DNA of 64,000 bases from an uncultured Acidimicrobiia bacterium (GTDB lineage Bacteria; Actinomycetota; Acidimicrobiia; Spongiisociales; Spongiisociaceae). This document shows, piece by piece, positions 36,533 through 57,961 of this stretch; the first letter of the stretch is position 1; every line of letters begins with the position of its first letter. The stretch is taken from positions 2,441,058-2,505,057 of the forward strand of contig OY282370.1 of assembly GCA_958295745.1 (NCBI GenBank). Reading direction: 5' to 3'. The notes beneath the pieces were generated by a model. That model had not been told where the DNA came from. It was given only the letters and a program-made list of their open reading frames with translations, and made no database searches. The position numbers and the translations under genes were made by a program.

Positions 36533-36533
36533 C

Positions 36534-37542: not shown

Positions 37543-37543
37543 T

Positions 37544-38893
37544 TTAGAGACCTAGAGCCCTTCGAGTTTCTTCCATAAAAAACTCTCCATAGCTAACTGG
37601 TGCCCCTATGATGTTACCTTCGTGGTCGTATCTCAGCGAGTGAATGCGGACATCTAGGTCACCGCGTTCAAAGAACAGAATTGATACATCTTCGGGCTTC
37701 AAAGGAGAAGATTTATCACGTATATCCATACGCACACGGTCCAGTATGTAGTCACTGTGCGTCTCTATGATCAGCTGTTTGTTGTCGCCAGCAACCTGAC
37801 AGAACAAACTGCCGAGAGCAGCTTGGGCACTGGGGTGTAGATGAACTTCTGGTTGCTGTAACAGAAACATGTCAGGTGCGTCTGTTCTAAGCAGTTCAGT
37901 TATCAGCGGTAGTACCTGGCTGACTCCATAACCAACATCTATCAAATTACGTCGCGGGCCCTTTCGATTATCACTGAACTTCCTAATTTGGATTTGGAAA
38001 GGCCCACCGTACCCTCTTCCTAGTTGCTCTAGCGATAATTCATCGAATAGGCCGGAATTGTGTCCAAAGTCCTCTAGCTTTTCCTGAAGTTCCTTCCATT
38101 CCTCTCTATTTTGAGAGTATAGGTCGGCAAGATACATAGGAACATAATCTCCTTCAGGATCCCGTATTGGACGGGATGGATCATAGGTTCGCTTAGGCTT
38201 GGAGCGAACTGGAGCGCTAGCATAATAGTATGGTCTTTGTTGACTTATATAGAGGTAAGGATATATAAAATTTCTTGACATCTTTATTATTTCTTTACAA
38301 TCTTTATCAGTAAGCTTTGGAGAGTTGGGAGAACTTATAAAGTTTTTCTTTCTGTCTAAAGACCAAGGTCGATCCACATGAAAGTGTAGAGGAAATAAGC
38401 GATCTTCCATACTTAAAATGTCAAGATATCTGTCTGCTGTTTGCTTATATTGCCAATTACCTCGTTCGGTTTTGAGCATGACATCTGTCTGTGTTTTTCT
38501 CAAGGTTTCCCTTATAGAGATATTCCCTTGCGAGAGAGATCGTTCTACAGGGATCGGTATATTACTCTGGTTTTTAAACATAGCCTCAAAATAATAAGGG
38601 GGAGAATTATCTGATCTAGATATTGGAGTAGTCTCGAATCCTGCTCTAAAACTCTCAGTGGTAGGGCTGTTGCTTCCATGATAGGATATTTCATCAAAGC
38701 TACCTAGGTCATAGGGTTGTTCTTTGAAGTCAGGAACTCGTTGACCGTAGGCAACGTCCCACAGTGCTCGGATCATGGCCATGAAAGAGGTCTTGCCGGT
38801 GCTGTTCTCACCCACTAGAAGAGTGAGCGGTGCCAATCGGACGGTCTGCCTTTCTCTAAAGCAACGGAAGTTTTCAAGCGTGATGCTATCCAT
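37544..38893 (-). CDS. AAA/ABC-type ATPase with DUF3696-like C-terminus
   Basis: ENFRCF, GENSTGKT, DVGYGVSQVLP, QQPEVHLHP and IETHS motifs; overlaps the helicase stop; low GC. Confidence 0.88.
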   Translation of the reverse strand: MDSITLENFRCFRERQTVRLAPLTLLVGENSTGKTSFMAMIRALWDVAYGQRVPDFKEQPYDLGSFDEISYHGSNSPTTESFRAGFETTPISRSDNSPPYYFEAMFKNQSNIPIPVERSLSQGNISIRETLRKTQTDVMLKTERGNWQYKQTADRYLDILSMEDRLFPLHFHVDRPWSLDRKKNFISSPNSPKLTDKDCKEIIKMSRNFIYPYLYISQQRPYYYASAPVRSKPKRTYDPSRPIRDPEGDYVPMYLADLYSQNREEWKELQEKLEDFGHNSGLFDELSLEQLGRGYGGPFQIQIRKFSDNRKGPRRNLIDVGYGVSQVLPLITELLRTDAPDMFLLQQPEVHLHPSAQAALGSLFCQVAGDNKQLIIETHSDYILDRVRMDIRDKSSPLKPEDVSILFFERGDLDVRIHSLRYDHEGNIIGAPVSYGEFFMEETRRALGL

Positions 38894-41800
38894 TGTTCCT
38901 TCTCTCGTTCTCTCGGGATGGAGTTGGCACTCCGAACAGGTCGGGATATTTCTCTACCTGCTCGGTGAACGGTCGGTCGTGTCTTATGGCCACCACTCGG
39001 TAGCCGTAGTCCTGCAACCGGGCGCGGCGTTGCTCGTCGGTTTCTCGTTGGCGGGGTTCGTCGTGGTGGGGGCCGTCTACGAACACGCATACGCCGGGCC
39101 GCTTTTCGCGATCGTAGTAGAAGTCGGGTTGTACGGGTAGATCCGCAACCGGGCGGTTCTGGGCTTTGTCCGGGAGGCGTAGGCCGTTGTCGTAGAGGAA
39201 GCGCAGGAAGTTCCGCTCCAGCGCCGAGTGGGGATCTACCAAGCCCAGTAGGTGCTGGTAGTGCCGGTCGTTGTCCCTTTCTCCTTCCTGGACGGTTTCC
39301 GCGTGCGCGAGGCGGCGCAGGAAGTCCGGGAGGAGCCGCCGGTCGATGTAGCGGTGGTACGGCTGGTTCGAGTAGGAGAGCAGGCATTCGTAGCAGGCCA
39401 CGGCGCACTTCGCAGGGCCGCCTCCCACCTTGCCGCCGTCTGAGGGGTCGTAATGGCAGAGCCGCAGGGCCCGCTCCGCCACCCGCCCGAGGGCTTCCCG
39501 TTCAACGGCCAGGCGTTCCCACACGCCGATTCCGCCTTCGGCCGCCTCCCAGAACAGCAGTCGACGGTGATCGCCCCGTCCGATCAGCTCTGCTCCGATC
39601 TCCTGTTCCTCCACCTGGTATTCGACCTGGATGGCCCGCTTGAAGGCGTAGAGGAGGGTATGGAGAAACTCCTCCGACGGCTGATCGGCCAGGGGCCTGA
39701 TCATGAGTATGTTCCGCGTGTCCTGCACGTAGGGCATGATTCCCGTGATCGGCCGGGGTGCGTCCGGCTGTTGGCCGGCCTCTCCGCCTTGGTCGGCGGC
39801 GCGGCCCTGCCATCGCCCGGTACGGGGGTCGATGGCGAATCCGGTTTGTTCGCTCCGCCGCCAGCCCTGATTGATCCGCCATAGCTTCGCGGCGGGCGCG
39901 TGTACGACCTCCAGCAGGCAGTCACCCTCCGAGAACACCTCGGCCTGCAGGGGATGGACGCCGAAGCGGAAGTGCGTTGTGGTGAGGTATCCGCTCCGAA
40001 CCCGTTCCTCCTCTTCGGAGGAGATCCGCTCGAAGGGCCTCGCCCTCATCATGGGTTGTTTCAGCAGGCGTTGCGGGAACTGTGCGTTCTCGGCGTCCAG
40101 GCGGGTGCCGCAGTGCTCGCACATGTCCACCCCCAAAGAGGCCCCGGTGTGCGCACGTCCACACACGTTGCAGAGGCGCGCCTGCTCCAGATGCTCCTCG
40201 ACGCCTTCCGTAGGCAGCACCGCGTACTGCACCCGATGCTTCCGACCCTCGTGGTAGATCTGGTTGCTCGGCCCGAACTCCGTGAGCCCCAGAAAGCGGG
40301 GGCGGTCGATGAGCTGCCTGCCGCCCCGCACCGGCACCGAGACCCGCACCGGCAGCCGCGGGAAGTTGTATCCGGGCAGGAACCCCTCCCCGGCCAGGTA
40401 GCGGTAGGGGTAGAAGTCCGACTCGGAATGGTGTTTGGTCCGGTTGAGCAGAAGCCGGATCTCACGGCGGGCTTCCTTTTCCCGGCGCTCCGCTTCCTCA
40501 TGATCCTTCGAGCCGGCGTTGGGGTCGTCGATCAGGTGCCGCGCCTCGTCCCGCAGCCTGCACGTCGAACGGTAGAGATCGCGCCAGTGGTCGAAAGCCC
40601 GGTCGAATTGATCGGGCGCGGTACGCAGCGTTTCTTCGAGCCATCCTTGCGAGAACCACTGCGCCTTGTGGATGTCCTGCGTCCGCTTCGCGATCCGCCG
40701 CCCCCGATGCAAGGCTTCCTCGATGACCCGTTTACCCGCCGCCCCCGTGATGGCGGCCTGCTTGTCCGCCGCTATCGGCAGGCCGGGAGCTCCGAGGTCG
40801 AGTATCTCGGTCATGCTGTTGCCCAGGGACATACCGCTCGTTGCCAGCCAGGTGGAGTGCAGGTGGGCTCGCACCAGATCCTCGTTCTCGAGGTCGATCC
40901 GGGCCGGGGCGACCGCTCCGGCGATCATCTCACCGCGCCTCCCGAAGAAGTATTGATCGTGGGCGTTCCCCTGCGCGGCGAAGGCCACGATCAACGCCGG
41001 TTGACCGCCCCGCCCCGCCCGTCCGCTCCGCTGCGCGTAGTTGGCCGGAGTGGGCGGCACGTTGCGCAGATGGACCGTATGGAGGTCCCGTATGTCAACC
41101 CCCAGCTCCATGGTGGGCGAGCAGAACAGCGCCGGCAGCTCGCCGTTCCTGAACCGGTCTTCCCGTTCGCTCCGGATGTCGGCGGCGATCTGCCCGGTGT
41201 GCTCCGCCGCCGCCATCCCCCGCAGATGCCGCCCCTGGTTCTGGTAGAGGTTGGTGAAGTAGGAGTTGGCCTCCTGTATCCCGGGCAGTTCCCTCCGCAG
41301 GTGGAGCGACCTGCTCCTCACCGGATCGGGCGGGGCCGGGCCGCCGCCGCCCGCCGCCCAGCGCATCGCCCCGGCCAGCACGCGGACGCCCCCGTCCTGG
41401 TTCCTCTGGTCGGCCGCCGCCGCCGCCAGGAGATGGCCCCGCAGCCTTTCGACGACGCCCTCCACCAGGAATTCTGACTCGTCGGCGGCCATGGTCCGGT
41501 CGGTGTTCCATGTGGTGGGGGAGCGCAGATAGCGGGCGACGGCGGAGCGCCGCCCCAGGCTCATCGTCCTGCGCCTCGAATATCGGTTCGCCTGCACCCC
41601 CGGCAGCAGGGCCATGCTCTGCGTCCGCGGGCGGTCCAGGTCCTCCAGACGCCAGGGATCCCGCAGCCACTGATCGGTGTTGCGGATCAGTCGGCGGGCG
41701 GCGGCTTCGGTCAACGGCGGGGCATCGACGGCCAGCCCCATGCGCAGATGGTCGAGAAAGGCGTGCAGCACCCTTCGGCGGGTTGCCGCAGAGGCATCGG

Positions 41801-44033
41801 AGATAGCCGGCAGGGCGTCCCATAAACTGTGATCGGCGGCGAGGTCGTCCAGCCCCGCATACTCGATTCGGAGCAGCCCGGTTTGTTCCAGGTTGGGTTG
41901 GGTGATCCTCCAATCGCGGCTCAGATCCTCCAAGGCGCGGTATTCGAGCAGGTCCACCATGGCCCGCCTGCCCTGCTCGTATCCGGGTCCCCCGGCCACC
42001 GACTCCCGCAGGAAGTCGCCCGGTTCGAGGTCGAGCGCCTCGAACACCGCCGGCCCGAGCCGGTCGAAAGTCAGGGTCCCGTTGCGCCGGACGGCTTCGA
42101 CCAGCCCGGCGCGCAGCTGGGCGACCTGCACAAAGTCGTTCAGATGCCCGGATTGGAGCGAGGCGTCCTGCCGGTTGTCGGTGAAGCTGAGGGACTTCGC
42201 CTCGGTGCGGTCCAGGTCCTGGTTCGCCATGCCCGCCACGGCCGCATTCATGGATATGGTCGTCGCGGTCGATCTTCCCGTCTGGCTGAGGGAGGAGAGC
42301 TTGCGGTAGTCGCCCACCCGAGTGTCGTACACGGCCCGGCAGCGCAGGCAGATCAGGAACTTGTGCGGCAGGAACCAGCCTTCCACTCCCGAACCGTCCG
42401 GCGGGTCGAGGCTTCCGTCGGGGGCGGCGCAGTACTCTTGAGGCCGGTACTGCCCGTAGTTCGGTTTGATGACCCTTCCGGCTTTCCGCTCGTTGAACCA
42501 GAACTCCGGCAGGTCGTTGTCGTCGCCCGCCCAGAGTTCGTCGTGCTCGACGGCGAAGTAGCCCTTTATGTCATCGAGGTCTTCCTCCGAGACGCCCGCC
42601 AGAGGAGAACGGGGTATCAGCCGTTCTGCCCCGTCTTCCTCGGTAAGCGACGCCAGGTAGTACTCCTGGCCGCATTCCCGGCAGAAGGCCAGCGGGTAGA
42701 GCACCCGTTCGCCGTCCGCCTTGTACTGGCCAGACATGCTGAACTCGCGGGCGTCCGGCGCCTCAAGAGTGGCGTAAACGCTGCTCCCCGACGAGAGCCA
42801 CTGGTGGAGGCGAAAGGCGAACAGGGGCCGCCCGGCGCTCCGCCCGGCCTCGTTGCCGGCTTCGAGCACGCTCCGAAGCGGTGTCCGGCACTGCTTGACC
42901 GCCAGGCCGCTCTCCTCAGCCAGCCGCTGGGCCACGTCCTCGAAGGTTTCGGGCCGCCGCCGGACCCACCGACCGTCTTTCTGTTCCAGGCCGAAGGCTT
43001 CCTCGGCCCAGGCCGCCAGGGGATGCCCGCGCACCGCTTCGGCCTCCGGCGCGGGTGCGGGCGCCTCCACCGCCGCCCGGATATCTTCCTTTTCTGTGGG
43101 CGCCGCCGGTATCGAGGTGACCCGTTCGAGGGTTTCGTCCACCACGTTGGCGGCGGGGATGTCCAGCCCGAAGAACTTCGACACGAGCTCGGACACGGCC
43201 TCGTTGCGCTCCGCTCTGGACCCGCCGGTGACCATGGTTGCGCTGGTGGCCACCGCTTGGAGATCGCGCCCGGCTGTCTCCTGGAGCCGGCGGGTGAGCA
43301 TCGCCGTGTCCGCCCCCTGCCGCCCTCGATAGAAGTGCAGCTCGTCCATCACCAAGGTTCGCAGGTCCCGGGTGGCGGTCTCGAGGAGCGGCCTTTCGCC
43401 GGGGCGCAGGAGCATGTACTCGGCCATCACGTAGTTGGTGAGCAGGATGTGCGGCGGGTCGGCGAGGATGCGCTCGCGGTCCTCCTGGCGATCCTGGCCG
43501 GTGAAACGGGCGAAGCGCACGGGCGAACCGGGGAAGTTGTCCCGCTGGTAGTTCTCGAGAGCTTCGATCTGGCTGTTGATGAGGGCGTTCATCGGATAGA
43601 TCAAGAGCGCCCGCACTGTGTGCCGCTCCGGTTCGTTCCTGAGGATGTTGTCGTAGATCGGCGCCAGGTAGGTGAGGCTCTTGCCCGACCCGGTGCCGGT
43701 CGTGACGACGTACGGTTCGCCGCGCAGGGCGAGGTCGATGGCCTGGCGCTGATGCCGGAAGAGCCGCAGACCCTCGCCGAAGAAACGGGCGGTGTTGTGC
43801 ATCAACACTCCGTCGCCGGCCATCTCCCCGAGGGTGCGGTCCATCTCAAAGGCGGGGTTGAGCTGGAGTACGGCCTCCGGCCAGAGGGCGCCCTCTTTCA
43901 GCCGGCGGTCGATGTAGCCGTGGATACGCTCGTCGAACACCCGCACGAAGCTGCGGACGTAGCTTTGATACTCATCGACCACCTGCTTGCGAAGCTCGAA
44001 GACATCCAACGGCATTGGTTGCGGCTCACTCAT
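38886..44033 (-). CDS. DEAD/DEAH helicase fused to DUF1998 and a C-terminal Vsr/DUF559-like nuclease (DrmA+DrmB-like)
   Basis: TGTGSGKS, YPMNAL, DELH, SAT, TMELGVDI, QRSGRAGR, CxxC pairs, CAVACYECLLSY and PDFYY..VFVDGPHHD motifs. Confidence 0.88.
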   Translation of the reverse strand: MSEPQPMPLDVFELRKQVVDEYQSYVRSFVRVFDERIHGYIDRRLKEGALWPEAVLQLNPAFEMDRTLGEMAGDGVLMHNTARFFGEGLRLFRHQRQAIDLALRGEPYVVTTGTGSGKSLTYLAPIYDNILRNEPERHTVRALLIYPMNALINSQIEALENYQRDNFPGSPVRFARFTGQDRQEDRERILADPPHILLTNYVMAEYMLLRPGERPLLETATRDLRTLVMDELHFYRGRQGADTAMLTRRLQETAGRDLQAVATSATMVTGGSRAERNEAVSELVSKFFGLDIPAANVVDETLERVTSIPAAPTEKEDIRAAVEAPAPAPEAEAVRGHPLAAWAEEAFGLEQKDGRWVRRRPETFEDVAQRLAEESGLAVKQCRTPLRSVLEAGNEAGRSAGRPLFAFRLHQWLSSGSSVYATLEAPDAREFSMSGQYKADGERVLYPLAFCRECGQEYYLASLTEEDGAERLIPRSPLAGVSEEDLDDIKGYFAVEHDELWAGDDNDLPEFWFNERKAGRVIKPNYGQYRPQEYCAAPDGSLDPPDGSGVEGWFLPHKFLICLRCRAVYDTRVGDYRKLSSLSQTGRSTATTISMNAAVAGMANQDLDRTEAKSLSFTDNRQDASLQSGHLNDFVQVAQLRAGLVEAVRRNGTLTFDRLGPAVFEALDLEPGDFLRESVAGGPGYEQGRRAMVDLLEYRALEDLSRDWRITQPNLEQTGLLRIEYAGLDDLAADHSLWDALPAISDASAATRRRVLHAFLDHLRMGLAVDAPPLTEAAARRLIRNTDQWLRDPWRLEDLDRPRTQSMALLPGVQANRYSRRRTMSLGRRSAVARYLRSPTTWNTDRTMAADESEFLVEGVVERLRGHLLAAAAADQRNQDGGVRVLAGAMRWAAGGGGPAPPDPVRSRSLHLRRELPGIQEANSYFTNLYQNQGRHLRGMAAAEHTGQIAADIRSEREDRFRNGELPALFCSPTMELGVDIRDLHTVHLRNVPPTPANYAQRSGRAGRGGQPALIVAFAAQGNAHDQYFFGRRGEMIAGAVAPARIDLENEDLVRAHLHSTWLATSGMSLGNSMTEILDLGAPGLPIAADKQAAITGAAGKRVIEEALHRGRRIAKRTQDIHKAQWFSQGWLEETLRTAPDQFDRAFDHWRDLYRSTCRLRDEARHLIDDPNAGSKDHEEAERREKEARREIRLLLNRTKHHSESDFYPYRYLAGEGFLPGYNFPRLPVRVSVPVRGGRQLIDRPRFLGLTEFGPSNQIYHEGRKHRVQYAVLPTEGVEEHLEQARLCNVCGRAHTGASLGVDMCEHCGTRLDAENAQFPQRLLKQPMMRARPFERISSEEEERVRSGYLTTTHFRFGVHPLQAEVFSEGDCLLEVVHAPAAKLWRINQGWRRSEQTGFAIDPRTGRWQGRAADQGGEAGQQPDAPRPITGIMPYVQDTRNILMIRPLADQPSEEFLHTLLYAFKRAIQVEYQVEEQEIGAELIGRGDHRRLLFWEAAEGGIGVWERLAVEREALGRVAERALRLCHYDPSDGGKVGGGPAKCAVACYECLLSYSNQPYHRYIDRRLLPDFLRRLAHAETVQEGERDNDRHYQHLLGLVDPHSALERNFLRFLYDNGLRLPDKAQNRPVADLPVQPDFYYDREKRPGVCVFVDGPHHDEPRQRETDEQRRARLQDYGYRVVAIRHDRPFTEQVEKYPDLFGVPTPSRENERRNNG

Positions 44034-44691
44034 TGCTCAGGTCCGGCAGTTCCCCGCGCGCCATCTGGTCATACGCCGCAAGCACATAGCGCTGGGTCCG
44101 GTACTCGCCGAACTCTTTCATCTCTTTGCGCTTGAGGGTAGGGAAGGACGCACTCGGAGGCGGAGCATCAAGGATCCATTCGAGATCCTCGCGCTCCAGA
44201 CGGTACATATGGGCGTAGATGGCGTCCAATTCACTCTTGAGTTTATGACGCCGTTCATCGTCCCAAATGAAGGGAGGTCCTTCGTAACCCAGATCCCTGG
44301 CGAACGGTTCCAGGTCATGGGCTGTATACGTCAGCTCCAAGACGCGAGGTACGATCAGCTCTACATACTTCAGTCCCAGGCAAGCTTCTTCCAAGTATGT
44401 CTCCGGAGGGAGGATGGGGAGCTGTTTTATGATAAAGAAGTTGAGGTTTGTCCCACCCACCGAGAGGCGAGCTGCCCAGTCCAGGGGAAGGCTGTTCATA
44501 TTGGCTAAAACAAGGGTGGAAGCTACTACTTTAGCTTGTTTATAGTATATCAATGAAGAACTGTGTCCAACGGCACTCAGAGGAATATTTTCAACTAGGG
44601 TAGTACGCTCATTAGTAGCATTTGTGATATTCCTGTAAGCTTGAAGCCAGCGTTCGGAGTCAATATGGAGTAAGGGTGCCTTGTTGCTCAC
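44026..44691 (-). CDS. C-terminal (specificity/helical) part of the N6 methyltransferase, out of frame with the main ORF
   Basis: YRNITNATNERT, NSLPLDW, QLPILPP, ELDAIYAHMY and GEYRTQRYVL motifs; AGGAGG 7 nt upstream of GTG, overlapping the upstream TAG. Confidence 0.85.
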   Translation of the reverse strand: MSNKAPLLHIDSERWLQAYRNITNATNERTTLVENIPLSAVGHSSSLIYYKQAKVVASTLVLANMNSLPLDWAARLSVGGTNLNFFIIKQLPILPPETYLEEACLGLKYVELIVPRVLELTYTAHDLEPFARDLGYEGPPFIWDDERRHKLKSELDAIYAHMYRLEREDLEWILDAPPPSASFPTLKRKEMKEFGEYRTQRYVLAAYDQMARGELPDLSNE

Positions 44692-44876
44692 AGCAGTTCC
44701 TCCTAAGGTCGCGACGATAGTGGTTCGTTGATTGGTTGCATTTGTGATATCTCGGAAGGCAATGAGCCAATTATAATGGTTATTCCCGATTCGCCTATGC
44801 CTAAGAGAGGGATCATTGCTGCTATTCCGGTTCGGAGATTCGTTGAACTGGCGATACGCCTGATATTGAGATGAGC
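44545..44876 (-). repeat. Three tandem diverged 35-codon cassettes of a putative target-recognition segment
   Basis: C1 44876-44772 AHLNIRRIASSTNLRTGIAAMIPLLGIGESGITII; C2 44769-44665 WLIAFRDITNATNQRTTIVATLGGTAVSNKAPLLH; C3 44649-44545 WLQAYRNITNATNERTTLVENIPLSAVGHSSSLIY. They align without gaps. Confidence 0.85.
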
Positions 44877-47800
44877 GCCAGTCGGGTGAGGACTTGTAGC
44901 GTCTGTCCCCTGTCCCCGATCCGATCCGATCCGATCCGATCCGATCCGATCCGATCCGATCCGATCCGATCCGATCCGATCCGATCCGATCCGATCCGAT
45001 CCGATCCGATCCGATCCGATCCGATCCGATCCGATGGTGGTAGTATGACCCGTTACGGCTTTGTTTAGTTTGGTCATCACCTCATTCTCAGGTACCCAGT
45101 AGCGTGGAAGTGGTAAGGTATGAGGGTTGGCCTTTTCATTGGAGGGAATAGTTTGAGCATTACCTTTCAATAAATCCTTGGGAGATGATTCAGCAAAGGT
45201 AGCAAATCTGTGGTCATACTGGTGGAATAGCTTGGCCTCATACAAAGGTAGATATAGTTCTTCACCACGTATAAATATATTGCCTCTTAGTTCCCAACCG
45301 TCTTCAGTTAACTGCTGGTGAGTACGGAATAGATAGGAGGCGGTGTTCATCATGAACATAAGCTGAAATTTAACACCCCAAGGATTTGACTCGGGCTGAT
45401 CATCTGAAAGTTCTCTCCAGAATACTCCAGCATATTGGTACATCTTGCGGGCGATTTCCATGTCCTTTTGGGTTCGGAAGAGGGGACAGGTACGAGTGTT
45501 AGGGTTGAAAAGGGCAAAGTCCTCAGAGGATAGAAAAAATCGTCGCTCGGAGTCCTGTAATTGTTCGGTGTGGTGTAGGAAAAAGGCAAACTCACCTTGT
45601 GCGCTTGGTCTATCAATCCCGCTCAATGTAAGAAGGCAAAACTTCAGTCGGCCATCTATACCAGGAAAAACCTTCCTTTTGTTCTCAAAGTCGTACAGGC
45701 TGACCAAGGCCCTATGATCTATAAGATCAGCAAAAAAATACTGGTTGAATGAATCGGTAGCTATACCTGTAGGTACTATAATCCCAGCTTTGCCTCTTGG
45801 GTGCTGTAGATCTTTGGAGTGTTCGGCAAAGAGAGGTGCATAGTTCAATCGGCCATAGCTGGTCTTTGGGAATCGGCCGGATGAATGGATGAACTTCTGA
45901 GTGGCTTTCATTTCTCTTACTGCAACTTGATACTCGAGATAGAGGCCAGGATTGGTCGAAGCTAAGCGTTGGATTGCACGGTTCCGGGCTGCCATGTTGG
46001 GTTGGTTTGCTACATCGGGGTCGCTGGTCGCGAAGAACTCTCGCGGGTCCAGTTGGACTTGGTCCCACGGCGGGTTGCCCAGTACTACGTCGAACCCGCC
46101 GTCCTTGAAACACACGTCAGGGAACTCAAGAGGCCAATGGAAGTAGGGGTAGTCTCTAGATGCTTGGTGGGCCCTGTCCTCGAGTTGTGATCCTGTATTC
46201 TGCCCATTGCGGGCGCGACGGATATCGTCAGTGGTGGGTACACGATCATGTTCCTCTGTTTCAAAGGATTCACGCGGAGCAAAGAATGCATAGGTCCATA
46301 GATCACAGGCTACCTTAAACCTGCGTAGGACTTCCGAATTTTGTAGCTCCCTGTATTCTTTCTCCATCTTTTTGACATCGGCAGCGCTACGTTCTGCTCT
46401 CCTTCCAAAGTTGGCAAAATCATCTGCCATTTTTTGGGTGTCTAACGGAGGCGGTTCCGAAGTCAGACGCTGTTGGCCGGTGCGCTCCTTCTTGTTGCGC
46501 TTGCGATACCATTTGGCCGCTTCCTTGTCGTCTCCGGTTACCGGCTTGTAGGCGGCGTCGGGAATGCCCTCTTTGAGGACATCGAGGTCCATCACCCCCA
46601 CCAGGCTGTCACCGCACTTGACATGGTGGTCGAGAAAGCCGAGCGGCAGGCCCACCGTGTGACACTCGATCCACAGGGCCACCTTGCACAGGTCCACGGC
46701 CAGTGGGTTCTTGTCCACCGCATAGATGCAGTGCCGTACCACGGTGCGGAGGGCGCGGCGGTAGTCAAGGGGGGAGGGCTCTTCGCCCCCCGCCCGGATC
46801 TTGGCCAGCTCGCGGGCGATGCGGCGGGCGGCGGCCAGCAGGAAGTGGCCGGAGCCGGAGGCGGGGTCGCACACCCGGAGGTCCAAGAGCGCCTGCACTT
46901 TCTTGATCCTTGTATCGGCTGCGGCCAACCGTTCTTCCATGACCGGGACCAGGGCGCTGTCCACCAGCTCGCGCACCAGCTCCGGCGGCGTGTAGTAGGA
47001 GCCGGTCTCCTTGCGCTGGGTGCCGGCGGCTAGGTCGAAGCTGGGCGGGCTGCCGGATACCTCGCCCACATCCAGAACCGGCCGATAGTCCAGCAGGCTC
47101 TCGTAGACCGAGCCGAACTCCTCCACATCCAGCGCGGCGTAGTTCACCCTCCGCCTGACTCCGCCGTCGTGGAACGTCGACAGTGACCGCATTACCGTGA
47201 GCAGCGTCTCGTTGGAGCAGTGCGCGGTTTCGATGCGGCTGCAGGCCTGCTCGCCGAACAGCTCGCCGTTCAGGGGGGACAGGTTCAGGTGTCGGGCGGC
47301 GGCCTCGTCCCGGCAGAGGCGGAAGGTCTCGGCGAGGCCCGCCCAGAGGTCTCCATGATTGTCGCCCGCGAAGTAGTGCTCGGCGCGTTCCCGCAGCCGC
47401 GTGACGCTGTAGTAGCGGTCGTAGATGGTCTGCCCGGTGCTCGGTTCAATGAAGAGGAGCTTGCGTTCCTCCGCCACCATCAGGAACAGCATCCGGTAGA
47501 CGAAGTTGAGCAGCTGCCGGTAGTAGCCGGTCTCGTCGAGGGTTCCGCCGCGGAGGGCGCGGCGCAGGGTCCCGTTGCCGGGATGCGAGACGAGGGCCCT
47601 GCCCAGCACTTCGAGCGCGCTCTTGACGCCGTGGCGGAGCTTCTCCCTGACCCGGCCGCCCTCCTCTATCCCCTGGTTGTAGTAGTTCTCCAGCAGGCAT
47701 TCGTGCGGCTCGATCTCCCCGAGTGGGAACCTGGTCGAGTGCATGAGGCGGTAGAGAACGACGAACTCGCGGTAGTCGTTGCCATCGATCATGGCCCGCA

Positions 47801-48356
47801 GGTCGAACTCCAGGTAGGTGGGCTTGGAAAGCCGGGCGCTGTCCCGCAGCAGGCGTAGATGGGTGCCGTTGGTTGTCACCCCCCACAGGGCCTCGGACCG
47901 GTTGAGGAAGTCCTGAACCTGGGTGTGAGGGCTGCGCCGGTTCCGGGTGCCTCGGTCGTCGAGACCCTGGTCCAGCGTCACGATATGGATAGGGACGGCG
48001 TTCTCGCCGCCGCCGACGCGGTGCGAAATGATGAACTGAGACCCTCCTGCCTCGACGGCCGCCCGCTGGTATTTGAGGGGCGGGAACCCGAGCAGCTCGA
48101 AGAACTTGGCGGCCCAGTCCTGCCGGGTGAGGGTGGTGCGGCTCTCCTGTGATCGGTTTAGCCGCCTGTTGAAAGCGTCCCAGTAGACCCGCGAGTCGGA
48201 GAAGGCTCTTTGGATCTCCTCGGTCAGGCTCCTGTTGCGGGGCAGTCTGAAATCGGCGGCGCGCTGTCCTTCGATATCGGTGTCGCCCTCGCCGATCCGT
48301 TCGATCAGATCGGATGGGAAGAAGCCGCCCTCGATGTCGATGGTCGCGTAGGCCAT
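44703..48356 (-). CDS. N6-adenine DNA methyltransferase (Eco57I/type IIG-like, DrmMI-like), phase-variable and truncated at the current repeat number
   Basis: GSYYTP, DPASGSGHFL (motif I), GNPPW (motif IV), LPLYEAK..QYDHR; (IGSDR)8 tract. Confidence 0.9.
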   Translation of the reverse strand: MAYATIDIEGGFFPSDLIERIGEGDTDIEGQRAADFRLPRNRSLTEEIQRAFSDSRVYWDAFNRRLNRSQESRTTLTRQDWAAKFFELLGFPPLKYQRAAVEAGGSQFIISHRVGGGENAVPIHIVTLDQGLDDRGTRNRRSPHTQVQDFLNRSEALWGVTTNGTHLRLLRDSARLSKPTYLEFDLRAMIDGNDYREFVVLYRLMHSTRFPLGEIEPHECLLENYYNQGIEEGGRVREKLRHGVKSALEVLGRALVSHPGNGTLRRALRGGTLDETGYYRQLLNFVYRMLFLMVAEERKLLFIEPSTGQTIYDRYYSVTRLRERAEHYFAGDNHGDLWAGLAETFRLCRDEAAARHLNLSPLNGELFGEQACSRIETAHCSNETLLTVMRSLSTFHDGGVRRRVNYAALDVEEFGSVYESLLDYRPVLDVGEVSGSPPSFDLAAGTQRKETGSYYTPPELVRELVDSALVPVMEERLAAADTRIKKVQALLDLRVCDPASGSGHFLLAAARRIARELAKIRAGGEEPSPLDYRRALRTVVRHCIYAVDKNPLAVDLCKVALWIECHTVGLPLGFLDHHVKCGDSLVGVMDLDVLKEGIPDAAYKPVTGDDKEAAKWYRKRNKKERTGQQRLTSEPPPLDTQKMADDFANFGRRAERSAADVKKMEKEYRELQNSEVLRRFKVACDLWTYAFFAPRESFETEEHDRVPTTDDIRRARNGQNTGSQLEDRAHQASRDYPYFHWPLEFPDVCFKDGGFDVVLGNPPWDQVQLDPREFFATSDPDVANQPNMAARNRAIQRLASTNPGLYLEYQVAVREMKATQKFIHSSGRFPKTSYGRLNYAPLFAEHSKDLQHPRGKAGIIVPTGIATDSFNQYFFADLIDHRALVSLYDFENKRKVFPGIDGRLKFCLLTLSGIDRPSAQGEFAFFLHHTEQLQDSERRFFLSSEDFALFNPNTRTCPLFRTQKDMEIARKMYQYAGVFWRELSDDQPESNPWGVKFQLMFMMNTASYLFRTHQQLTEDGWELRGNIFIRGEELYLPLYEAKLFHQYDHRFATFAESSPKDLLKGNAQTIPSNEKANPHTLPLPRYWVPENEVMTKLNKAVTGHTTTIGSDRIGSDRIGSDRIGSDRIGSDRIGSDRIGSDRIGSDRGQGTDATSPHPTGAHLNIRRIASSTNLRTGIAAMIPLLGIGESGITIIIGSLPSEISQMQPINEPLSSRP
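44916..45035 (-). repeat. Perfect pentanucleotide microsatellite (ATCGG)24 inside the methyltransferase
   Basis: 24 exact CCGAT units on the + strand (120 bp). Confidence 0.98.
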
Positions 48357-48359
48357 GGT

Positions 48360-51227
48360 TCAGTTTCCCGCCGGAACTAGGACGTAACAGCCGATGATGT
48401 CGGGCGGTCGGTGCGGTTTCACGGCCGCCTCCGCCCCGTCGACGACGCTACGGAGCCGTTCGTGGGCGCCCTGCAAGGCGGCCGCCCGCTCGTTGACGAT
48501 GCCGTCGCACCAGCCGTCTCCCTCGAGCATACCCAGCGCCCACCTGACCTGTTCCTCCCGCTCTCCGGGTGCCATGTTGACAGCCGGTTCGGCCTCCGCC
48601 AGCAGACGCAGGCCGTCTTTTTCGAGCCGGACCAGCCGCCCGATGTCGTAGGGGTGGCGCCGGAACGCCCCGACCACCACTTCCTCGGCGAACTGCCGGC
48701 CGCTCCGATCTTCTATGAGGTAGCGGAGCCGGAGCACTAGGACGATCGTCCGGTAGCCGACCGCATCGGTGACGATCGCGCCCGCCCTGGCGAACCGGTT
48801 GTCGTCGCCTTCCAAGGCCTTGGCGAGCACGGCTTCGGACAGCGCGGCCACCGCCGGATGGTTGCGCCCCAGCGTGGTCGCGCCCCGGCGCGGGATATCG
48901 TCGAAGGCCGCGCTCATGGGGAAGCTGATTTCGGGGGCGCGGGCGGCGATGCGGTCCCGCAGGTCGCCGGCATGCAGCCGGTATACGCCCTCGGTGTTCG
49001 TTCCGCGGAGCTCACCGTTGAAGCGCTGGACGGCGTTGGCGACGAACCGTTTCACGTCCTTGGCGCTCCCCAGCACCGGTTCCATCTCTTCCAGCTCGCG
49101 GGCCACGTCGTCGGGCTCGATCCCGCGCTGGGCGAAGTAGGCCCGCGTCTTGGTCTCCCTTTCCGCCATCTGCTCCCAGGCCTCGTGCAGCCTGCTCACC
49201 GATTCGTCCTCCAAAGCGAGCCGGAACTGCTGGGCTTGGCCGTCCCCCCGCAGCAGGACGCTGTTGATCAAGGTGTTGATTACCTGTTCGGACTCGACCG
49301 GCACCGGCACCGAGATGCCGAGGCTCCGGCGGATGGTCTGCGCCTTCTTGAGGAGCACCTTCAGCACCACGAGGTCCATCTCGTTGTCGGACCCGTAGAG
49401 CAGCACCGTCTTGATCACGTCCCTGTCCTGTCCGAAGCGGTCCACCCGGCCTTCCCGCTGTTCCAACCGGTTGGGGTTCCAGGGGAGGTCGTAATGCAGC
49501 ACCGCGTCGTAGTGTTCCTGGAGGTTCACCCCTTCACTCAGGCAGTCCGTGGCGACCAGCACCCGCACCGGTTCTTGCGCTAGGCCCAGCACGATCTCTC
49601 TGCGCTGCTCGCTGTCGCCTTCATTCCCGGTAACCGCCTTCACCGACAGGCCTGGATGGGTCTTTGCCAGCGTCTTCTGGAGATGCTTGGCTGCGTAGTA
49701 GGCGGTTTGGATGTAGCGGCAGTAGACGATGGGGCGGTAGCCCCCGGTTAGCAGGTCGGAGACTGCGGCGGCGGCCGCGGATATCTTCGCGTCCTGCTCC
49801 GGGCCGTCCAGTTCCTTTGCCCGTTCCAGGAAGTTGTTCAGCTCGCGTATGTCGGTTGCGTCGAGGCCGGCTTCGGGATCGTCCAGGGCCGCGGTGGACA
49901 CGTAGTCGGTGGGATGCTCTTCGTCTGCGGAGTCCAGTATCTGCCGCCCGAAGTCCTCGTCGCTGGCCCCGTCCCCGTTCTGCGCCGCAGTCGAGGTCTC
50001 GGACTGCTTGCGGTTCTCGAGCACCGCCCTCGCCGCGCCGGGGCTGGAGAGCACGCACCGCAGGATCGACAACGCCGCCCAGTAACGAACCCGCCTCCGT
50101 TGGCTGGCCTCCTCCGGGGTGGACACGTATTCCTGGCAGTATTCCAGGATGTTCCTGTAGAGCAGGTGGTATCCCGTGGACATCTGGTAGGTGCGTTCGA
50201 TGGATTCCCGTTCGGGGAAGGGGGTGTCCACTTCCAGCCAGCGCTGTAGGTCGGACCGCTTGCGTTGCACGAAGTGCGGGACCAGCCGGGAGCGGGGCAG
50301 CCTCGACTCACCGGGCGCGTCGAAGGAGGGGTCCAGAAGGCCCAGCAGCGATCTGAAGTTCTCTTCTACGCCGCTGTGAGGGGTGGCAGTCACCAGGAGG
50401 ATGTGCCGGTCGGTTTTCTGGGCGAGCTCCTTCACTAGGGCGTAGCGCTGCTGTTGCCTGCCCTGTTTACCGCCGCGGGGCCGCGAAGAGGTGTGGGCTT
50501 CGTCCACGATGATGAGGTCGGGGGCGTAGTTCAGGAACGGCCCGCGGTTGCGTTCCAGCTTTACGAAGTCGATGCTGACCACGAGATGGCTGTAGTGCTG
50601 GTAGAGGGAGATGTTCTGGAGCGGCAGTCCCCGTTCCAGCCGCCCGATCCGGGACGACTGGACGACCGCCGCTTTTATGTTGAACTTGGTCCGCAGTTCC
50701 TCCTGCCATTGCTCGCACAGGTGGGGGGCGCATAGGACGCCGATGCGGCGCACCACCCCCCGGTCGAGCAGCTCGCGGGCGATCATGGCGGCTTCGATGG
50801 TCTTGCCCACGCCCACGTCGTCGGCGATCAGCAGGCGCACCGGATTCTGCCGCAGGGCCATGATCAGAGGCACGAACTGGTAGGGCCGCGGGGTGACCGA
50901 CAGCCGCCCCATCGAGCGGAACGGGCCCGCGCCGCTCCGAAGCCCGAGCCGCACAGCGTCGCGCAACAACAGCGCCCCGGTGAAGTCGCCGGCCCGCTCC
51001 GGGTCGGGCGGGGAGTACTCGGAGGGTTTGATGGCGTCCGGTTCCAACGGAAGGTATATCCCGATCGCCTCGGCGTCCGGGCCGTCGACAGGACGCAGCC
51101 GGACGGCGGCCTGCTCATCAGGGTCGGGAGGCAGTACCACCCAGTTCCGACCCCGGGCGCTCACCAACGCCCCGGGAGGGAAGTCGATCGTAGAGCCTTG
51201 AGGGTGTCTGAGCCCGATGTATGCCAT
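48360..51227 (-). CDS. SNF2/RapA-like helicase (DISARM DrmD-like)
   Basis: ADDVGVGKT, DEAH, TATPHSG, SEGVNLQ and LPWNPNRLEQREGRVDR motifs. Confidence 0.9.
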   Translation of the reverse strand: MAYIGLRHPQGSTIDFPPGALVSARGRNWVVLPPDPDEQAAVRLRPVDGPDAEAIGIYLPLEPDAIKPSEYSPPDPERAGDFTGALLLRDAVRLGLRSGAGPFRSMGRLSVTPRPYQFVPLIMALRQNPVRLLIADDVGVGKTIEAAMIARELLDRGVVRRIGVLCAPHLCEQWQEELRTKFNIKAAVVQSSRIGRLERGLPLQNISLYQHYSHLVVSIDFVKLERNRGPFLNYAPDLIIVDEAHTSSRPRGGKQGRQQQRYALVKELAQKTDRHILLVTATPHSGVEENFRSLLGLLDPSFDAPGESRLPRSRLVPHFVQRKRSDLQRWLEVDTPFPERESIERTYQMSTGYHLLYRNILEYCQEYVSTPEEASQRRRVRYWAALSILRCVLSSPGAARAVLENRKQSETSTAAQNGDGASDEDFGRQILDSADEEHPTDYVSTAALDDPEAGLDATDIRELNNFLERAKELDGPEQDAKISAAAAAVSDLLTGGYRPIVYCRYIQTAYYAAKHLQKTLAKTHPGLSVKAVTGNEGDSEQRREIVLGLAQEPVRVLVATDCLSEGVNLQEHYDAVLHYDLPWNPNRLEQREGRVDRFGQDRDVIKTVLLYGSDNEMDLVVLKVLLKKAQTIRRSLGISVPVPVESEQVINTLINSVLLRGDGQAQQFRLALEDESVSRLHEAWEQMAERETKTRAYFAQRGIEPDDVARELEEMEPVLGSAKDVKRFVANAVQRFNGELRGTNTEGVYRLHAGDLRDRIAARAPEISFPMSAAFDDIPRRGATTLGRNHPAVAALSEAVLAKALEGDDNRFARAGAIVTDAVGYRTIVLVLRLRYLIEDRSGRQFAEEVVVGAFRRHPYDIGRLVRLEKDGLRLLAEAEPAVNMAPGEREEQVRWALGMLEGDGWCDGIVNERAAALQGAHERLRSVVDGAEAAVKPHRPPDIIGCYVLVPAGN

Positions 51228-51342
51228 CGCCCCCGAAGGTTACCGAACGGAATGCCGATGCCCGCCGCAGGTCTGCCTTCGAGGACGGGTGGATCGCGCC
51301 AGGCGGCGGAGATCGGTCTTCGTTGGGTTCGGAAACGGGGGG

Positions 51343-51999
51343 TTATACCTCGACCGCGGCTATTTCTTGTGGGGCGGACCCGGTTCCGGCGGGCACCGGC
51401 TCGGCGGGTCGGAAAGAGGCAGGTCGGTCATCGGCCAGGATGTTCAGGCGGTCCTTGACTACAGCCATATCGATCTGCAGGTATCGCACCCGATCATCCA
51501 CCACACTGAGACCGTTCTCGATCTTGGTCGTGCGATCTTTGACGGTGGCCATATCCAATTGCAGATTCTGTATTCCATTTTCCCCCACACCGAGGCGGCC
51601 TTCGGCGCTGGTGAGGCGGTTCTCGACTTTGGTGAGGCGGTTCTCGACTTTGGTGAGGCGGTCTTCGACTTTGGTGAGGCGGTCTTCGACTTTGGTGAGG
51701 CGGTCTTCGACTTTGGTGAGGCGGTCTTCGACTTTGGTGAGGCGGTCTTCGACTTTGGTGAGGCGGTTCTCGACTTTGGTGAGGCGGTCCTTGACGATGG
51801 CAAGCTCCGCCTGCAGGTTGCTTACGCCTTCTTCGACTTTGGTGAGGCGGTCCGCCAGCCCCTGTATCTGTAGCTGCAGGAGAGCGATCGACTGCTGTAC
51901 CGCCTTCTGGTTGGCCGCGTTGAGCCGCCACATGACCACGGACAGGGCTGCGAACAGCCCGGCGGTGAGGTAGAGGTTGTTCAGGAAGTCGGGGTTCAC
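51343..51999 (-). CDS. Membrane-anchored coiled-coil protein with LTKVE(D/N)R heptad repeats
   Basis: N-terminal TM (LYLTAGLFAALSVVMW) and 21-nt tandem repeats at ~51609-51790. Confidence 0.8.
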   Translation of the reverse strand: MNPDFLNNLYLTAGLFAALSVVMWRLNAANQKAVQQSIALLQLQIQGLADRLTKVEEGVSNLQAELAIVKDRLTKVENRLTKVEDRLTKVEDRLTKVEDRLTKVEDRLTKVEDRLTKVENRLTKVENRLTSAEGRLGVGENGIQNLQLDMATVKDRTTKIENGLSVVDDRVRYLQIDMAVVKDRLNILADDRPASFRPAEPVPAGTGSAPQEIAAVEV

Positions 52000-52215
52000 G
52001 CGGCCTGCTCCTTCATTGCGGGAGTATACACGGCTCTCGGCTGTGTTTGTCTATAATAGTTAATATATGGCAAATATGGATTGTGGTCAACCCCCTTGTT
52101 CGACATGCCGAGGCTGAACGCGGCCTCCGCCCCATGCCGGAGGGCCCGGTGAGGCATCTGCGGGCCGGGGGGGGCGGACGGGAGGAGGTGGACGATCAGC
52201 CGAGCGGCGGGACTT

Positions 52216-57885: not shown

Positions 57886-57961
57886 ATATACATTCCAAGT
57901 ATTGAAGTTCCGGTTGGGATCGATGGAGTCGGGTGAGCCGGTCTCCTGACCTCCGGAAGGG

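What the first reader, a model, noticed from the sequence alone, without database searches (positions are those of the whole stretch)
44026..45035. Microsatellite-selected array of alternative specificity cassettes in a defence DNA methyltransferase
Seen: after (ATCGG)24, which has no stop in any frame, come three gaplessly alignable 35-codon variants of one segment, R[RDN]IxxxTNxRT...[GA][IV][GS]. C1 is 107 nt from C2 (different frame). C2 is 120 nt from C3, in frame with it and with the C-terminus. With n=24 (0 mod 3), C1 is translated and the ORF stops at 44703. That TAG overlaps an AGGAGG 7 nt before GTG 44691, which could reinitiate a separate C3+C-terminal polypeptide. With n=23 or 26 (2 mod 3), C1 DNA reads as a stop-free hydrophilic linker (TGDRRYKSSPDW...HYN) into C2, C3 and the C-terminus, giving a 1441-aa protein at n=23. 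With n=25 (1 mod 3), a TAG occurs inside C1. Known: SSRs in mod genes give ON/OFF phasevarions, and specificity switching usually uses invertible hsdS TRDs. Inference: slippage alone gives three states (specificity A, specificity B, OFF) by frame selection of tandem recognition cassettes, with no recombinase. The array could also seed deletion-based cassette swapping.
Basis: partly seen in the sequence, partly recalled or inferred. Interest (0 to 1): 0.95.

Follow-up and report, generated by a model that had tools for sequence, protein, structure and literature searches.

The report
Three-frame repeat switch in defence methyltransferase
A perfect 5-base repeat inside a phage-defence DNA methyltransferase gene decides which of three overlapping reading frames is read, and relatives in several phyla keep the same layout, so the enzyme can probably flip between a fused, a split and a truncated form.

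Summary
(ATCGG)24 lies on the minus strand at 45035-44916, followed by three homologous 35-codon cassettes. C1 is in the frame now read; C2 and C3 are in the -1 frame.

The layout is conserved, not a local accident. In 16 of 16 related loci that have both C1 and C2, C1 lies +1 relative to C2. Seventeen of 19 loci carry a repeat at the same site, with units of 1, 2, 4, 5, 7, 8 or 10 nt and never a multiple of 3.

C1 is under purifying selection in its own frame (pN/pS 0.42, against 1.60 and 0.91 in the other frames). The overprinted linker frame is open in 14 of 14 loci.

C2 carries an in-frame ATGA/GTGA in 11 of 14 loci (C1 0/14, C3 0/12, single-copy relatives 2/98). This is where the C1-frame ORF ends and a ~221-aa C-terminal ORF starts; 98 of 120 database ORFs start exactly there.

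Best reading: a contingency locus with three states: fused long enzyme, C1-capped large subunit plus coupled small subunit, or truncation.

The "alternative specificity cassettes" idea is not supported. The cassette is the most conserved element of the family and occurs once in single-copy relatives. Repeat-length variation and methylation output could not be tested.

The parts
44703..48356 (-). ORF1 as assembled (n=24): 1217-aa large protein. It holds an N-terminal domain, a gamma-class N6-adenine MTase (DPASGSGHF, NPPW), the first half of the beta-rich domain, the repeat-encoded (IGSDR)8, C1 and a 24-residue tail (IGSLPSEISQMQPINEPLSSRP is its last 22).
   Evidence: Translation. Pfam Eco57I 2.1e-17 and N6_Mtase 5.3e-07. 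PADLOC DrmMI 5.6e-85.
44916..45035 (-). (ATCGG)24 simple sequence repeat, perfect. It is the frame selector.
   Evidence: It is one of the three longest non-triplet SSRs in the 3.31-Mb genome.
44772..44876 (-). Cassette C1, read in the frame of ORF1 (n = 0 mod 3).
   Evidence: Profile match 30.1 bits. Across 14 loci pN/pS is 0.42 in this frame, against 1.60 and 0.91 in the other two.
44770..44913 (-). Linker frame overprinted on C1 (TGDRRYKSSPDW...NNHYN). It is read when n = 2 mod 3 and leads into C2.
   Evidence: The frame is open in 14 of 14 loci although synonymous resampling gives P 0.05-0.47 per locus.
44822..44824 (-). TAG that ends the third frame (n = 1 mod 3), 30 codons after the repeat.
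   Evidence: In the 16 loci the third frame stops about 16-37 codons after the repeat in 15; L089 shows no stop in the stretch printed.
44665..44769 (-). Cassette C2 (long frame). Its DNA also holds the end of ORF1, the Shine-Dalgarno sequence and the start of the small ORF.
   Evidence: Profile match 51.1 bits. C2-specific [AG]TGA.
44688..44705 (-). Junction: TAG stop of ORF1 (44705-44703), AGGAGG (44704-44699), GTG start (44691-44689), and C1-frame TGA (44690-44688) overlapping the GTG.
   Evidence: Read. Comparison with relatives.
44026..44691 (-). Small ORF (P0002, 221 aa): last strand of C2, then C3, then the helical C-terminal domain.
   Evidence: 1592 database proteins of 121-387 aa match at E<=1e-10. 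98 of the best 120 start at the same residue. Weak TIGR02987 (Alw26I family) match, 2.4e-4.
44545..44649 (-). Cassette C3, the copy closest to the single segment of canonical relatives.
   Evidence: 51.0 bits. (identity to canonical 0.42, against 0.35 for C1 and 0.38 for C2). The equivalent C3 of L004 is modelled as four strands with block pLDDT of 80-96.
48360..51227 (-). Upstream neighbour: 955-aa SNF2 helicase, DrmD/DpdE-like.
   Evidence: Pfam. PADLOC DpdE 1.5e-190 and DrmD 2.5e-91. NCBIfam DrmD 344.5 bits, below its cutoff of 610.
38886..44033 (-). Downstream neighbour: 1715-aa DEAD/Helicase_C + MZB (DUF1998) protein, DruE-like / fused DrmA-DrmB-like. Its start overlaps the end of the small ORF.

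Best explanation
This is a contingency (phase-variable) locus in the methyltransferase of a DISARM-like defence operon (SNF2 helicase, MTase, helicase+DUF1998).

The repeat sits in a loop after the PRYWV strand, in front of the four-strand cassette that precedes the helical C-terminal domain. Slipped-strand changes in its length move translation among three overlapping frames.
1. n = 2 mod 3: one fused protein of about 1440 aa (linker, C2, C3, helical C-terminal domain).
2. n = 0 mod 3, the assembled state: a 1217-aa large subunit whose beta domain is completed by C1. Its stop lies at or next to the start of a ~221-aa small ORF (end of C2, C3, C-terminal domain), which is made by translational coupling.
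3. n = 1 mod 3: a large subunit cut about 30 codons after the repeat, with no cassette.

Shown here: the anatomy, its conservation, selection on both overprinted frames, and the C2-specific stop-start overlap.

Inferred: that the tract length really varies, that the small ORF is translated, and that the states differ in activity. The difference could be methylation on, altered or off, or a changed coupling to the restriction helicases. I think a change of enzyme architecture is more likely than a cassette-encoded change of motif.
For: - Frames and signals in the window.
- Same layout in relatives from named Dehalococcoidia, Aestuariivita, Bryobacterales and Arenicellales assemblies and in metagenome contigs. 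C1 frame = C2 frame +1 in 16 of 16 rows, 14 distinct.
- 17 of 19 rows have an SSR at the site, with unit 1, 2, 4, 5, 7, 8 or 10 and none divisible by 3, with no filter on unit length. L065 adds (TCGGG)28.
- All three states occur among 14 distinct loci: third frame 6, C1 frame 5, long frame 3.
- Among 119 anchored database homologues: 34 C1-short, 26 short ending in another segment, 23 third-frame, 12 other short, 14 long with two segments, 10 with one segment plus C-terminal domain. 42 of the 119 carry repeat-type peptides of period 5, 7, 8, 4, 10 or 2.
- C1 is coding. pN/pS is 0.42 with pS 0.71, close to C2 (0.44) and C3 (0.38). Codon-position entropy is 0.93/0.50/1.41. Profile hits are 17-46 bits in 14/14 loci.
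- The linker frame is open in 14/14 loci; the product of the per-locus probabilities is 1e-10.
- The in-frame [AG]TGA is C2-specific. In 7 of 13 rows listed (12 distinct loci) it is the first C1-frame stop.
- 98 of the 120 best stand-alone C-terminal ORFs start at this residue.
- The genome's other two long non-triplet SSRs, (ACCA)44 and (CCGA)20, also lie in the 3' part of Eco57I-family MTase genes, with the C-terminal domain in another frame.
- Fold: the AF2 model of a natural fused relative has pLDDT 87.3. The cassette forms four strands just before an all-helical C-terminal domain. Best PDB matches are BrxX/PglX, CamA, M.BseCI, MmeI and M.TaqI.
Against: - No direct evidence that the tract length varies in this organism. 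Only Logan contigs exist for the four holder runs (one sample), and they break 30 nt into the repeat.
- Frame states taken from assemblies can be wrong at long repeats.
- AF2 did not place C1 with confidence in the short form (mean pLDDT 63.2; residues 670-788 below 50). It did predict three strands there.
- In the fused model the linker and C2 are below pLDDT 50. So the role of C2 as protein is unexplained, although it is under selection.
- 78 of the 89 alignment rows were single-copy relatives, so modelling C3 in the canonical place was expected and is not independent support.
- The Shine-Dalgarno sequence before the small ORF is strong in the window (AGGAGG) but only weakly purine-rich in several relatives.
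- L079 and L094 end the C1 frame 71-74 nt upstream of the start, so coupling is not universal.
- The gene-caller start positions partly reflect the caller's rules.
- The loci are phylogenetically related, so the product of probabilities overstates independence.
Confidence: 0.7

Rival explanations
1. C1 and C2/C3 are alternative DNA-recognition cassettes, so slippage selects specificity A, specificity B or OFF.
For: - The cassettes lie in the beta-rich stretch downstream of the MTase domain, in a protein whose best fold matches are MTases with a C-terminal recognition domain: BrxX/PglX, CamA, MmeI, M.TaqI.
- In PglX the region after the MTase domain is the target recognition domain (PMC11341690, passages read).
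- The classes differ at fixed positions: C1 RTGv.AMIP, C2 RT.Ifa.ipgtAvSNkaP, C3 RTli.dn.P.sGVGnsAP.
- A truncated-versus-fused switch of specificity by a repeat exists in NgoAV (PMC9577141, passages read).
Against: - The segment is one of the most conserved parts of the family.
- Each class consensus is kept across lineages whose enzymes most probably recognise different motifs.
- The long form holds C2 and C3 together.
- The largest differences between close relatives lie at residues 751-900, not in the cassettes.
- No methylation data exist.
Confidence: 0.12
2. Plain ON/OFF phase variation. Only the fused long form works. C1 and the small ORF are relics of old duplications and of gene-caller behaviour.
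For: - ON/OFF by SSR is the rule in Type III mod genes and in Cj0031 (PMC5909438 and PMC4889913, search listings only).
- AF2 could not fold C1 with confidence.
Against: - C1 shows purifying selection in its own frame, as strong as C2 and C3.
- The frame offset is conserved in 16/16 rows.
- The ATGA/GTGA overlap is C2-specific.
- Only 24 of 119 database gene calls are fused to the C-terminal domain, which is odd if that were the only useful state.
- A natural protein, P0125, uses C1 in frame ahead of C3 and the C-terminal domain.
Confidence: 0.1
3. Isoforms are made at the level of expression. Transcriptional slippage or ribosomal frameshifting on the repeat yields a mixture of frames from one allele, so the DNA state matters little.
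For: All three frames carry meaningful continuations. Two loci lack a long repeat but keep both frames: L088 has none and L004 has only C11.
Against: No slippery-site or stimulatory RNA family was found in 36000-52000. Hetero-pentamer tracts are, from my recall, not known sites of efficient transcriptional slippage. Different assemblies sit in different DNA frames.
Confidence: 0.05
4. Artefact or neutral linker. The repeat is an assembly error, or merely encodes a flexible linker peptide, and the frame differences are sequencing noise.
For: Long repeats are error-prone in assemblies. The repeat is stop-free and encodes hydrophilic peptides.
Against: - Contigs of four runs (one sample) enter the tract from the flank.
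- Repeats lie at the same site in 17 of 19 independent loci. No unit length is divisible by 3, where chance would give about (2/3)^15 = 0.002.
- The overprinted frames are under selection.
Confidence: 0.03

Closest known systems
[quoted passage not shown]
   Same: A repeat near the 3' end of a recognition-related gene decides between a truncated product and a fusion with the downstream ORF. Both forms are reported active, and a further frame gives no active enzyme in many strains.
   Different: NgoAV has a homopolymer in a separate S subunit of a Type I system. It has no overprinted extra copy of a conserved segment and no stop-start overlap created inside a duplicated cassette. Here the gene is a single-chain Eco57I-family MTase of a DISARM-like operon, and no change of motif has been shown.
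Phase-variable Type IIG Cj0031 and Type III mod phasevarions (PMC4889913 and PMC5909438, search listings and abstract starts only)
   Same: An SSR inside a DNA methyltransferase gene shifts the frame.
   Different: Those are described as ON/OFF switches, usually with the repeat early in the gene or splitting it. Here the repeat lies at residue 1107 of about 1441, and two of the three frames encode selected products.
Programmed inversions in Class 1 DISARM DrmMI-like and PglX genes (Milman et al., PMC9881135, passages incl. Table 3 and discussion read)
   Same: [quoted passage not shown]
- Variation is aimed at the MTase coding sequence.
- One BREX locus splits PglX into two proteins at the end of the variable region.
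   Different: The mechanism there is recombinase-driven inversion between repeats. Here it is slippage at an SSR with no recombinase, and the choice is among frames rather than among inverted segments. Their supplements, which I could not open, may list further loci.
EcoKI hsdM-hsdS overlap and engineered M-S fusion (PMC3510504, abstract read)
   Same: Two ORFs overlap at stop and start, and translation is coupled. Removing the frameshift gives a functional fused enzyme.
   Different: In EcoKI the fusion was engineered. Here the choice between fused and split is written into a hypermutable tract.
C-terminal phase variation in Helicobacter canadensis (PMC2823697, passages read)
   Same: Repeats late in a coding region change the C-terminus rather than abolish the protein.
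   Different: There the alternative tails are a few residues long and without shown conservation. Here the alternative tail is a conserved 35-residue structural cassette, or a domain of about 330 residues.

Membership tests
SSR-driven contingency (phase-variable) locus | Repeat of unit length not divisible by 3 inside the reading frame, long and pure enough to slip | tested here: met
   (ATCGG)24 with 100% matches. Relatives have units of 1, 2, 4, 5, 7, 8 or 10 at the same site.
SSR-driven contingency (phase-variable) locus | Tract length varies within a population or between close isolates | not testable with these tools
   Only Logan contigs are held for the four holder runs, and they stop 30 nt into the tract. 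Cluster members could not be listed.
SSR-driven contingency (phase-variable) locus | Length change alters the product | tested here: met
   Three frames give 1217 aa plus a 221-aa ORF, about 1441 aa, or truncation 30 codons after the tract.
Gamma-class N6-adenine DNA methyltransferase, Eco57I family | SAM-binding motif I and catalytic motif IV (NPPY/W) in gamma order, with a family profile match | tested here: met
   DPASGSGHF and NPPW in the translation. PF07669 2.1e-17 and PF02384 5.3e-07. Fold matches BrxX/PglX, CamA, MmeI and M.TaqI.
Class 1 DISARM | DrmMI methyltransferase | tested here: inconclusive
   PADLOC DrmMI 5.6e-85, but the best stretch covers only residues 440-764. No NCBIfam model reaches its cutoff.
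Class 1 DISARM | DrmD SNF2 helicase | tested here: inconclusive
   NCBIfam DISARM_DrmD 344.5 bits against a cutoff of 610. PADLOC DrmD 2.5e-91, but DpdE 1.5e-190 scores higher.
Class 1 DISARM | Separate DrmA helicase and DrmB (DUF1998) | tested here: not met
   One 1715-aa protein holds DEAD, Helicase_C and MZB/DUF1998. Its best PADLOC models are DruE; DrmA reaches only 3.9e-11.
Class 1 DISARM | DrmC phospholipase D nuclease | tested here: not met
   No PLD domain was found in the 16 neighbouring ORFs scanned between 33376 and 60697. From my recall, DrmC is dispensable in some systems.
Phasevarion (methylation-controlled regulon) | Switching of the MTase changes genome methylation and gene expression | not testable with these tools
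   No methylome or RNA data. No RNA holder was listed.

The most novel reading that the evidence does not exclude
The tract is a three-position selector of enzyme architecture kept by selection across phyla. One DNA stretch encodes, in two frames, either a structural cap (C1) that lets the large subunit stand alone, or a linker that fuses it to the C-terminal module. A duplicated cassette (C2) has been reshaped to hold the stop, the ribosome-binding site and the start of the split form. If the fused, split and truncated forms differ in methylated motif or in coupling to the two helicases, then slippage alone would reprogram a DISARM-like defence among protect-and-restrict, protect-only or altered-motif, and off.
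Probability: 0.3. Interest if true: 0.85.

Novelty: new variant of a known kind. Interest (0 to 1): 0.72.

Why it matters
Phase-variable methyltransferases are known mainly from host-adapted pathogens and mainly as ON/OFF switches.

Here the same principle appears in environmental lineages: named relatives are Dehalococcoidia, Bryobacterales, Arenicellales and Aestuariivita. It sits in a DISARM-like defence operon and has a more elaborate design:
- a dual-coding stretch with both frames under selection;
- three paralogous copies of one structural segment;
- a stop-start overlap built into one copy;
- repeats of unrelated sequence that have arisen again and again at one loop.

It gives a directly testable case of how a defence system can change form without a recombinase. 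It also warns annotators that the many "truncated" Eco57I-family genes and the orphan 221-aa ORFs (1592 clusters at E<=1e-10) are probably states of one switch rather than pseudogenes.

I found no description of this layout in five of my literature searches. These cover only the held library, and supplements were closed.

Tried and rejected
- **Repeat-length heterogeneity.** The four holder runs (one sample, one study) are kept only as contigs. These begin 30 nt inside the tract, so nothing can be said about length. No RNA holder was listed.
- **Solved structures by sequence.** No PDB chain matched the long-frame C-terminal 295 aa at E<=1 or P0001 at E<=0.01.
- **Pfam on the C-terminal module.** Scanning 75 C-terminal modules gave no shared family.
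- **Rfam.** No family at gathering score in 36000-52000.
- **AF2 of the window's short form.** With 36 C1-type sequences it was too weak (pLDDT 63.2) to say where C1 packs.
- **Test of whether the large and small subunits bind.** It could not be run because the tool did not complete.
- **Census of C1-type tails.** The word-indexed search gave 83 proteins at E<=0.001 among 8000 candidates. This is not a full count. The exhaustive representative search was not accepting jobs.
- **Recent-duplication idea, rejected.** I considered that C1-C3 were recent tandem duplications made by the repeat. DNA identity is only 40-54%, third positions of C2/C3 match in 9 of 35 codons, and the three classes are each conserved across loci.
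- **Linker-peptide idea, rejected.** I considered that the repeat merely encodes a linker peptide. Unit lengths are never divisible by 3.
- **Rows dropped before counts.** L084 (same sequence as L083 in this region) and L091 (same as L090) were left out. L065 was analysed by eye only, because an insert of about 420 nt separates its C2 and C3.


Full report
**1. What is there**

The window holds a perfect (CCGAT)24 at 44916-45035. This is (ATCGG)24 on the coding, minus strand. It lies inside a 1217-aa ORF (48356..44703), and a 221-aa GTG ORF follows (44691..44026).

The large protein has Eco57I and N6_Mtase Pfam domains, and its best PADLOC model is DrmMI at 5.6e-85. The gene sits between a 955-aa SNF2 helicase (DrmD/DpdE-like) and a 1715-aa DEAD + Helicase_C + MZB/DUF1998 protein (DruE-like). 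Downstream come an AAA_15 ATPase and a PIN protein. NCBIfam puts the SNF2 protein below the DrmD cutoff (344.5 against 610 bits).

I therefore call the operon DISARM-like, not DISARM. [quoted passage not shown]

**2.

Translating the three frames below the tract shows the following.
- The assembled frame reads C1 (AHLNIRRIASSTNLRTGIAAMIPLLGIGESGITII) and stops at TAG 44705-44703.
- The frame from 44913 is open through a hydrophilic linker, C2, C3 and the C-terminus to 44029.
- The frame from 44914 stops at TAG 44824-44822.

The TAG overlaps AGGAGG, which lies 7 nt before GTG 44691. A second C1-frame stop, TGA 44690-44688, overlaps that GTG (read).

C1, C2 and C3 share 8-17 of 35 residues. At the DNA level they share only 40-54%, and third codon positions of C2/C3 match in 9 of 35. 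The copies are therefore old.

**3. The layout is a family trait**

The best 120 database homologues of residues 700-1217 include many with peptide repeats of period 5, 7, 8 or 10 at exactly this site. Examples are DRTGQ, EPSRA, TRHDT and IQNPESR. These are followed by a C1-type segment, by linker + C2 + C3 + C-terminus, or by a short tail.

A scripted sort of the 119 proteins with the PRYWV anchor gave:
- 34 ending after a C1-type segment;
- 26 short, ending in or after another segment;
- 23 in the third frame;
- 12 other short;
- 14 long with two segments;
- 10 with one segment plus the C-terminal domain.

Of the 119, 42 have repeat-type peptides.

DNA came from genome contigs and metagenome contigs.
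- In 96 loci a single segment follows the anchor in frame and runs into the C-terminal domain. This is the canonical form: about 950-1260 aa for the stretch taken (from at most 690 codons before the anchor to the stop), in cyanobacteria, Streptomyces and many others.
- In 19 rows there are extra cassettes. In all 16 rows with both C1 and C2 (14 distinct), C1 lies in the frame +1 relative to C2.
- With no filter on unit length, 17 of 19 rows carry an SSR in the 520 nt before C2. The longest SSR in each row has a unit of 1 (one row), 2 (two), 4 (two), 5 (nine), 7 (one), 8 (one) or 10 (one) nt, with unrelated sequences and no unit divisible by 3.
- L065 adds (TCGGG)28.

Among 14 distinct loci with the anchor, six sit in the third frame, five in the C1 frame (the window among them) and three in the long frame.

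**4. Both overprinted frames are kept by selection**

In a 25-codon core of C1 from 14 loci, Nei-Gojobori counts give pN/pS 0.42 in the C1 frame, with pS 0.71, near saturation. The linker frame gives 1.60 and the third frame 0.91. C2 and C3 in their own frame give 0.44 and 0.38.

A profile of 123 distinct canonical segments finds C1 (17-46 bits, 14/14), C2 (22-60 bits, 14/14) and C3 (37-69 bits, 12/14 in the long frame). Apart from the shifted C3 of L089, which scores 56.6 bits in the third frame, it finds nothing above 0 bits in wrong frames.

The linker frame has no stop between repeat and C2 in 14 of 14 loci. Synonymous resampling of the C1 codons leaves it open with probability 0.05-0.47 per locus, and the product is 1e-10. 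The loci are related, so this overstates independence.

Identity within a class (0.44-0.52) exceeds identity between classes (0.35-0.39), and C3 is nearest to the canonical segment. So the triplication predates the spread of the clade.

**5. A built-in stop-start overlap**

At residue +21/22 after the motif arginine, C2 has an in-frame ATGA or GTGA in 11 of 14 loci. The counts elsewhere are C1 0/14, C3 0/12 and canonical segments 2/98.

The TGA is in the C1 frame. In 7 of the 13 rows listed (12 distinct loci) it is the first stop of the C1-frame ORF. In three rows, two of them distinct (the window and L083, with its duplicate L084), a stop lies 14-17 nt upstream. In two it lies 71-74 nt upstream.

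The protein database holds 1592 clusters of 121-387 aa matching the small ORF at E<=1e-10. Of the best 120, 98 start at this very residue (MSNK, MNHK, MSHH, MNEG and so on), and 100 of them are 220-229 aa long. Gene callers favour such 4-nt overlaps, so this is supporting evidence rather than proof of initiation.

EcoKI hsdM/hsdS shows that such an overlap couples translation and that the fused form also works (PMC3510504, abstract read).

**6. Structure**

A natural in-frame long relative (L004:1521-4418, 966 aa) was folded with 89 aligned sequences. It gave pLDDT 87.3 and pTM 0.86.
- The PRYWV strand is at 650-652.
- Residues 664-756 (the C-tract-encoded prolines, the linker and C2) are below pLDDT 50.
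- C3 forms four strands (759-794); the 10-residue blocks over it have mean pLDDT 94-96 except one of 80.
- Everything from 798 to 955 is helical.

Foldseek's best PDB matches are BrxX/PglX (9ewz, 8q56, 8c45; E 9e-14 to 3e-11), CamA, M.BseCI, MmeI and M.TaqI.

So the cassette supplies four strands between the PRYWV strand and the helical C-terminal domain, and the repeat sits in the loop before it. I had no model coordinates, so I infer rather than show that these strands pack with the strands just upstream. On that reading, a C1-ended large subunit would have a complete beta domain but no helical C-terminal domain. A third-frame product would lack the strands altogether.

Most alignment rows were single-copy relatives, so the choice of C3 for the canonical place is not independent evidence. 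The short-form model was too weak to place C1. The subunit-binding test could not be run.

**7. Context in the genome**

The 3.31-Mb genome has only 22 SSRs of at least 20 nt and at least 4 copies. Its three longest non-triplet tracts are (ACCA)44, this one, and (CCGA)20. The other two also lie in the 3' part of Eco57I-family MTase genes next to PLD-SNF2 genes. In both, the C-terminal domain sits in another frame, though each has a single segment and no C1. Hypermutable tracts in this organism are thus concentrated at the same joint of the same enzyme family.

**8. What the cassettes are not**

Close relatives of P0001 are 90-100% identical over residues 51-600 but drop to 30% in 801-850 (P0009). 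The more distant P0004 is 82% and 66% identical in 751-800 and 801-850. The window's GC falls from about 0.66 to 0.46-0.49 over 44500-46000, with intermediate values (0.54-0.56) on either side. The 3' part of the gene is therefore a swapped module, and the most variable block lies just after NPPW, not in C1-C3. This, together with the conservation in section 4, is why I do not accept "alternative specificity cassettes".

**9. Verdict**

On specificity it is unsupported.

The nearest known systems are NgoAV hsdS (PMC9577141), Cj0031 and mod phasevarions, inversion-switched DrmMI-like genes (PMC9881135), and C-terminal phase variation (PMC2823697).

Against all of these, the new elements are:
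- the conserved dual-coding stretch;
- the paralogous cap, C1;
- the start signals engineered into C2;
- the repeated birth of repeats at one loop across phyla.

The two unknowns that matter most are whether the tract length varies in vivo and what each state does.

Noticed in passing
G000 contig C1:2283995 (locus L161 4171-8080) and C1:2688622 (locus L162 3317-7601), outside the window: Two further Eco57I-family MTase genes of the same genome carry (ACCA)44 (plus ACCGACCA and ACCA tracts) and (CCGA)20 in their 3' part. Each lies next to a PLD + SNF2 gene. In both, the C-terminal domain of about 300 aa is in a different frame from the large ORF as assembled.
   Followed up: partly
window 44300-46400 and 37000-39000: GC drops from about 0.66 to 0.46-0.56 over the 3' 2 kb of the MTase gene, and to 0.40-0.48 over the AAA_15 ATPase and PIN genes. 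Identity profiles show that the 3' part of the MTase has a different history from its 5' part (mosaic gene).
   Followed up: partly
L065 9680-10098: In the Bryobacterales relative about 420 nt are inserted between C2 and C3, and C3 plus the C-terminal domain lie in another frame than C2. The nature of the insert was not examined.
   Followed up: no
protein P0125 (1424 aa, metagenome): A natural relative reads C1 in frame, passes through a degenerate C2 and continues into C3 and the C-terminal domain. So C1 can serve inside a full-length protein. P0127 shows C1 joined in frame to C2.
   Followed up: partly
L090/L091 5109-5330: In this metagenome relative the second cassette has C1-like residues (RTGITSMIPAFGAGHT) and is followed by a stop. 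C3 lies about 220 nt further on, in another frame.
   Followed up: no
window 54253-58137 (minus strand): A 1294-aa ORF two genes upstream of the SNF2 gene has no match in Pfam, PADLOC or NCBIfam.
   Followed up: no
window 16890-17770 and 51592-51789: Arrays of 21-nt (and 63-nt) tandem repeats. The second lies in a 218-aa coiled-coil ORF (51343-51999) just upstream of the defence operon.
   Followed up: no
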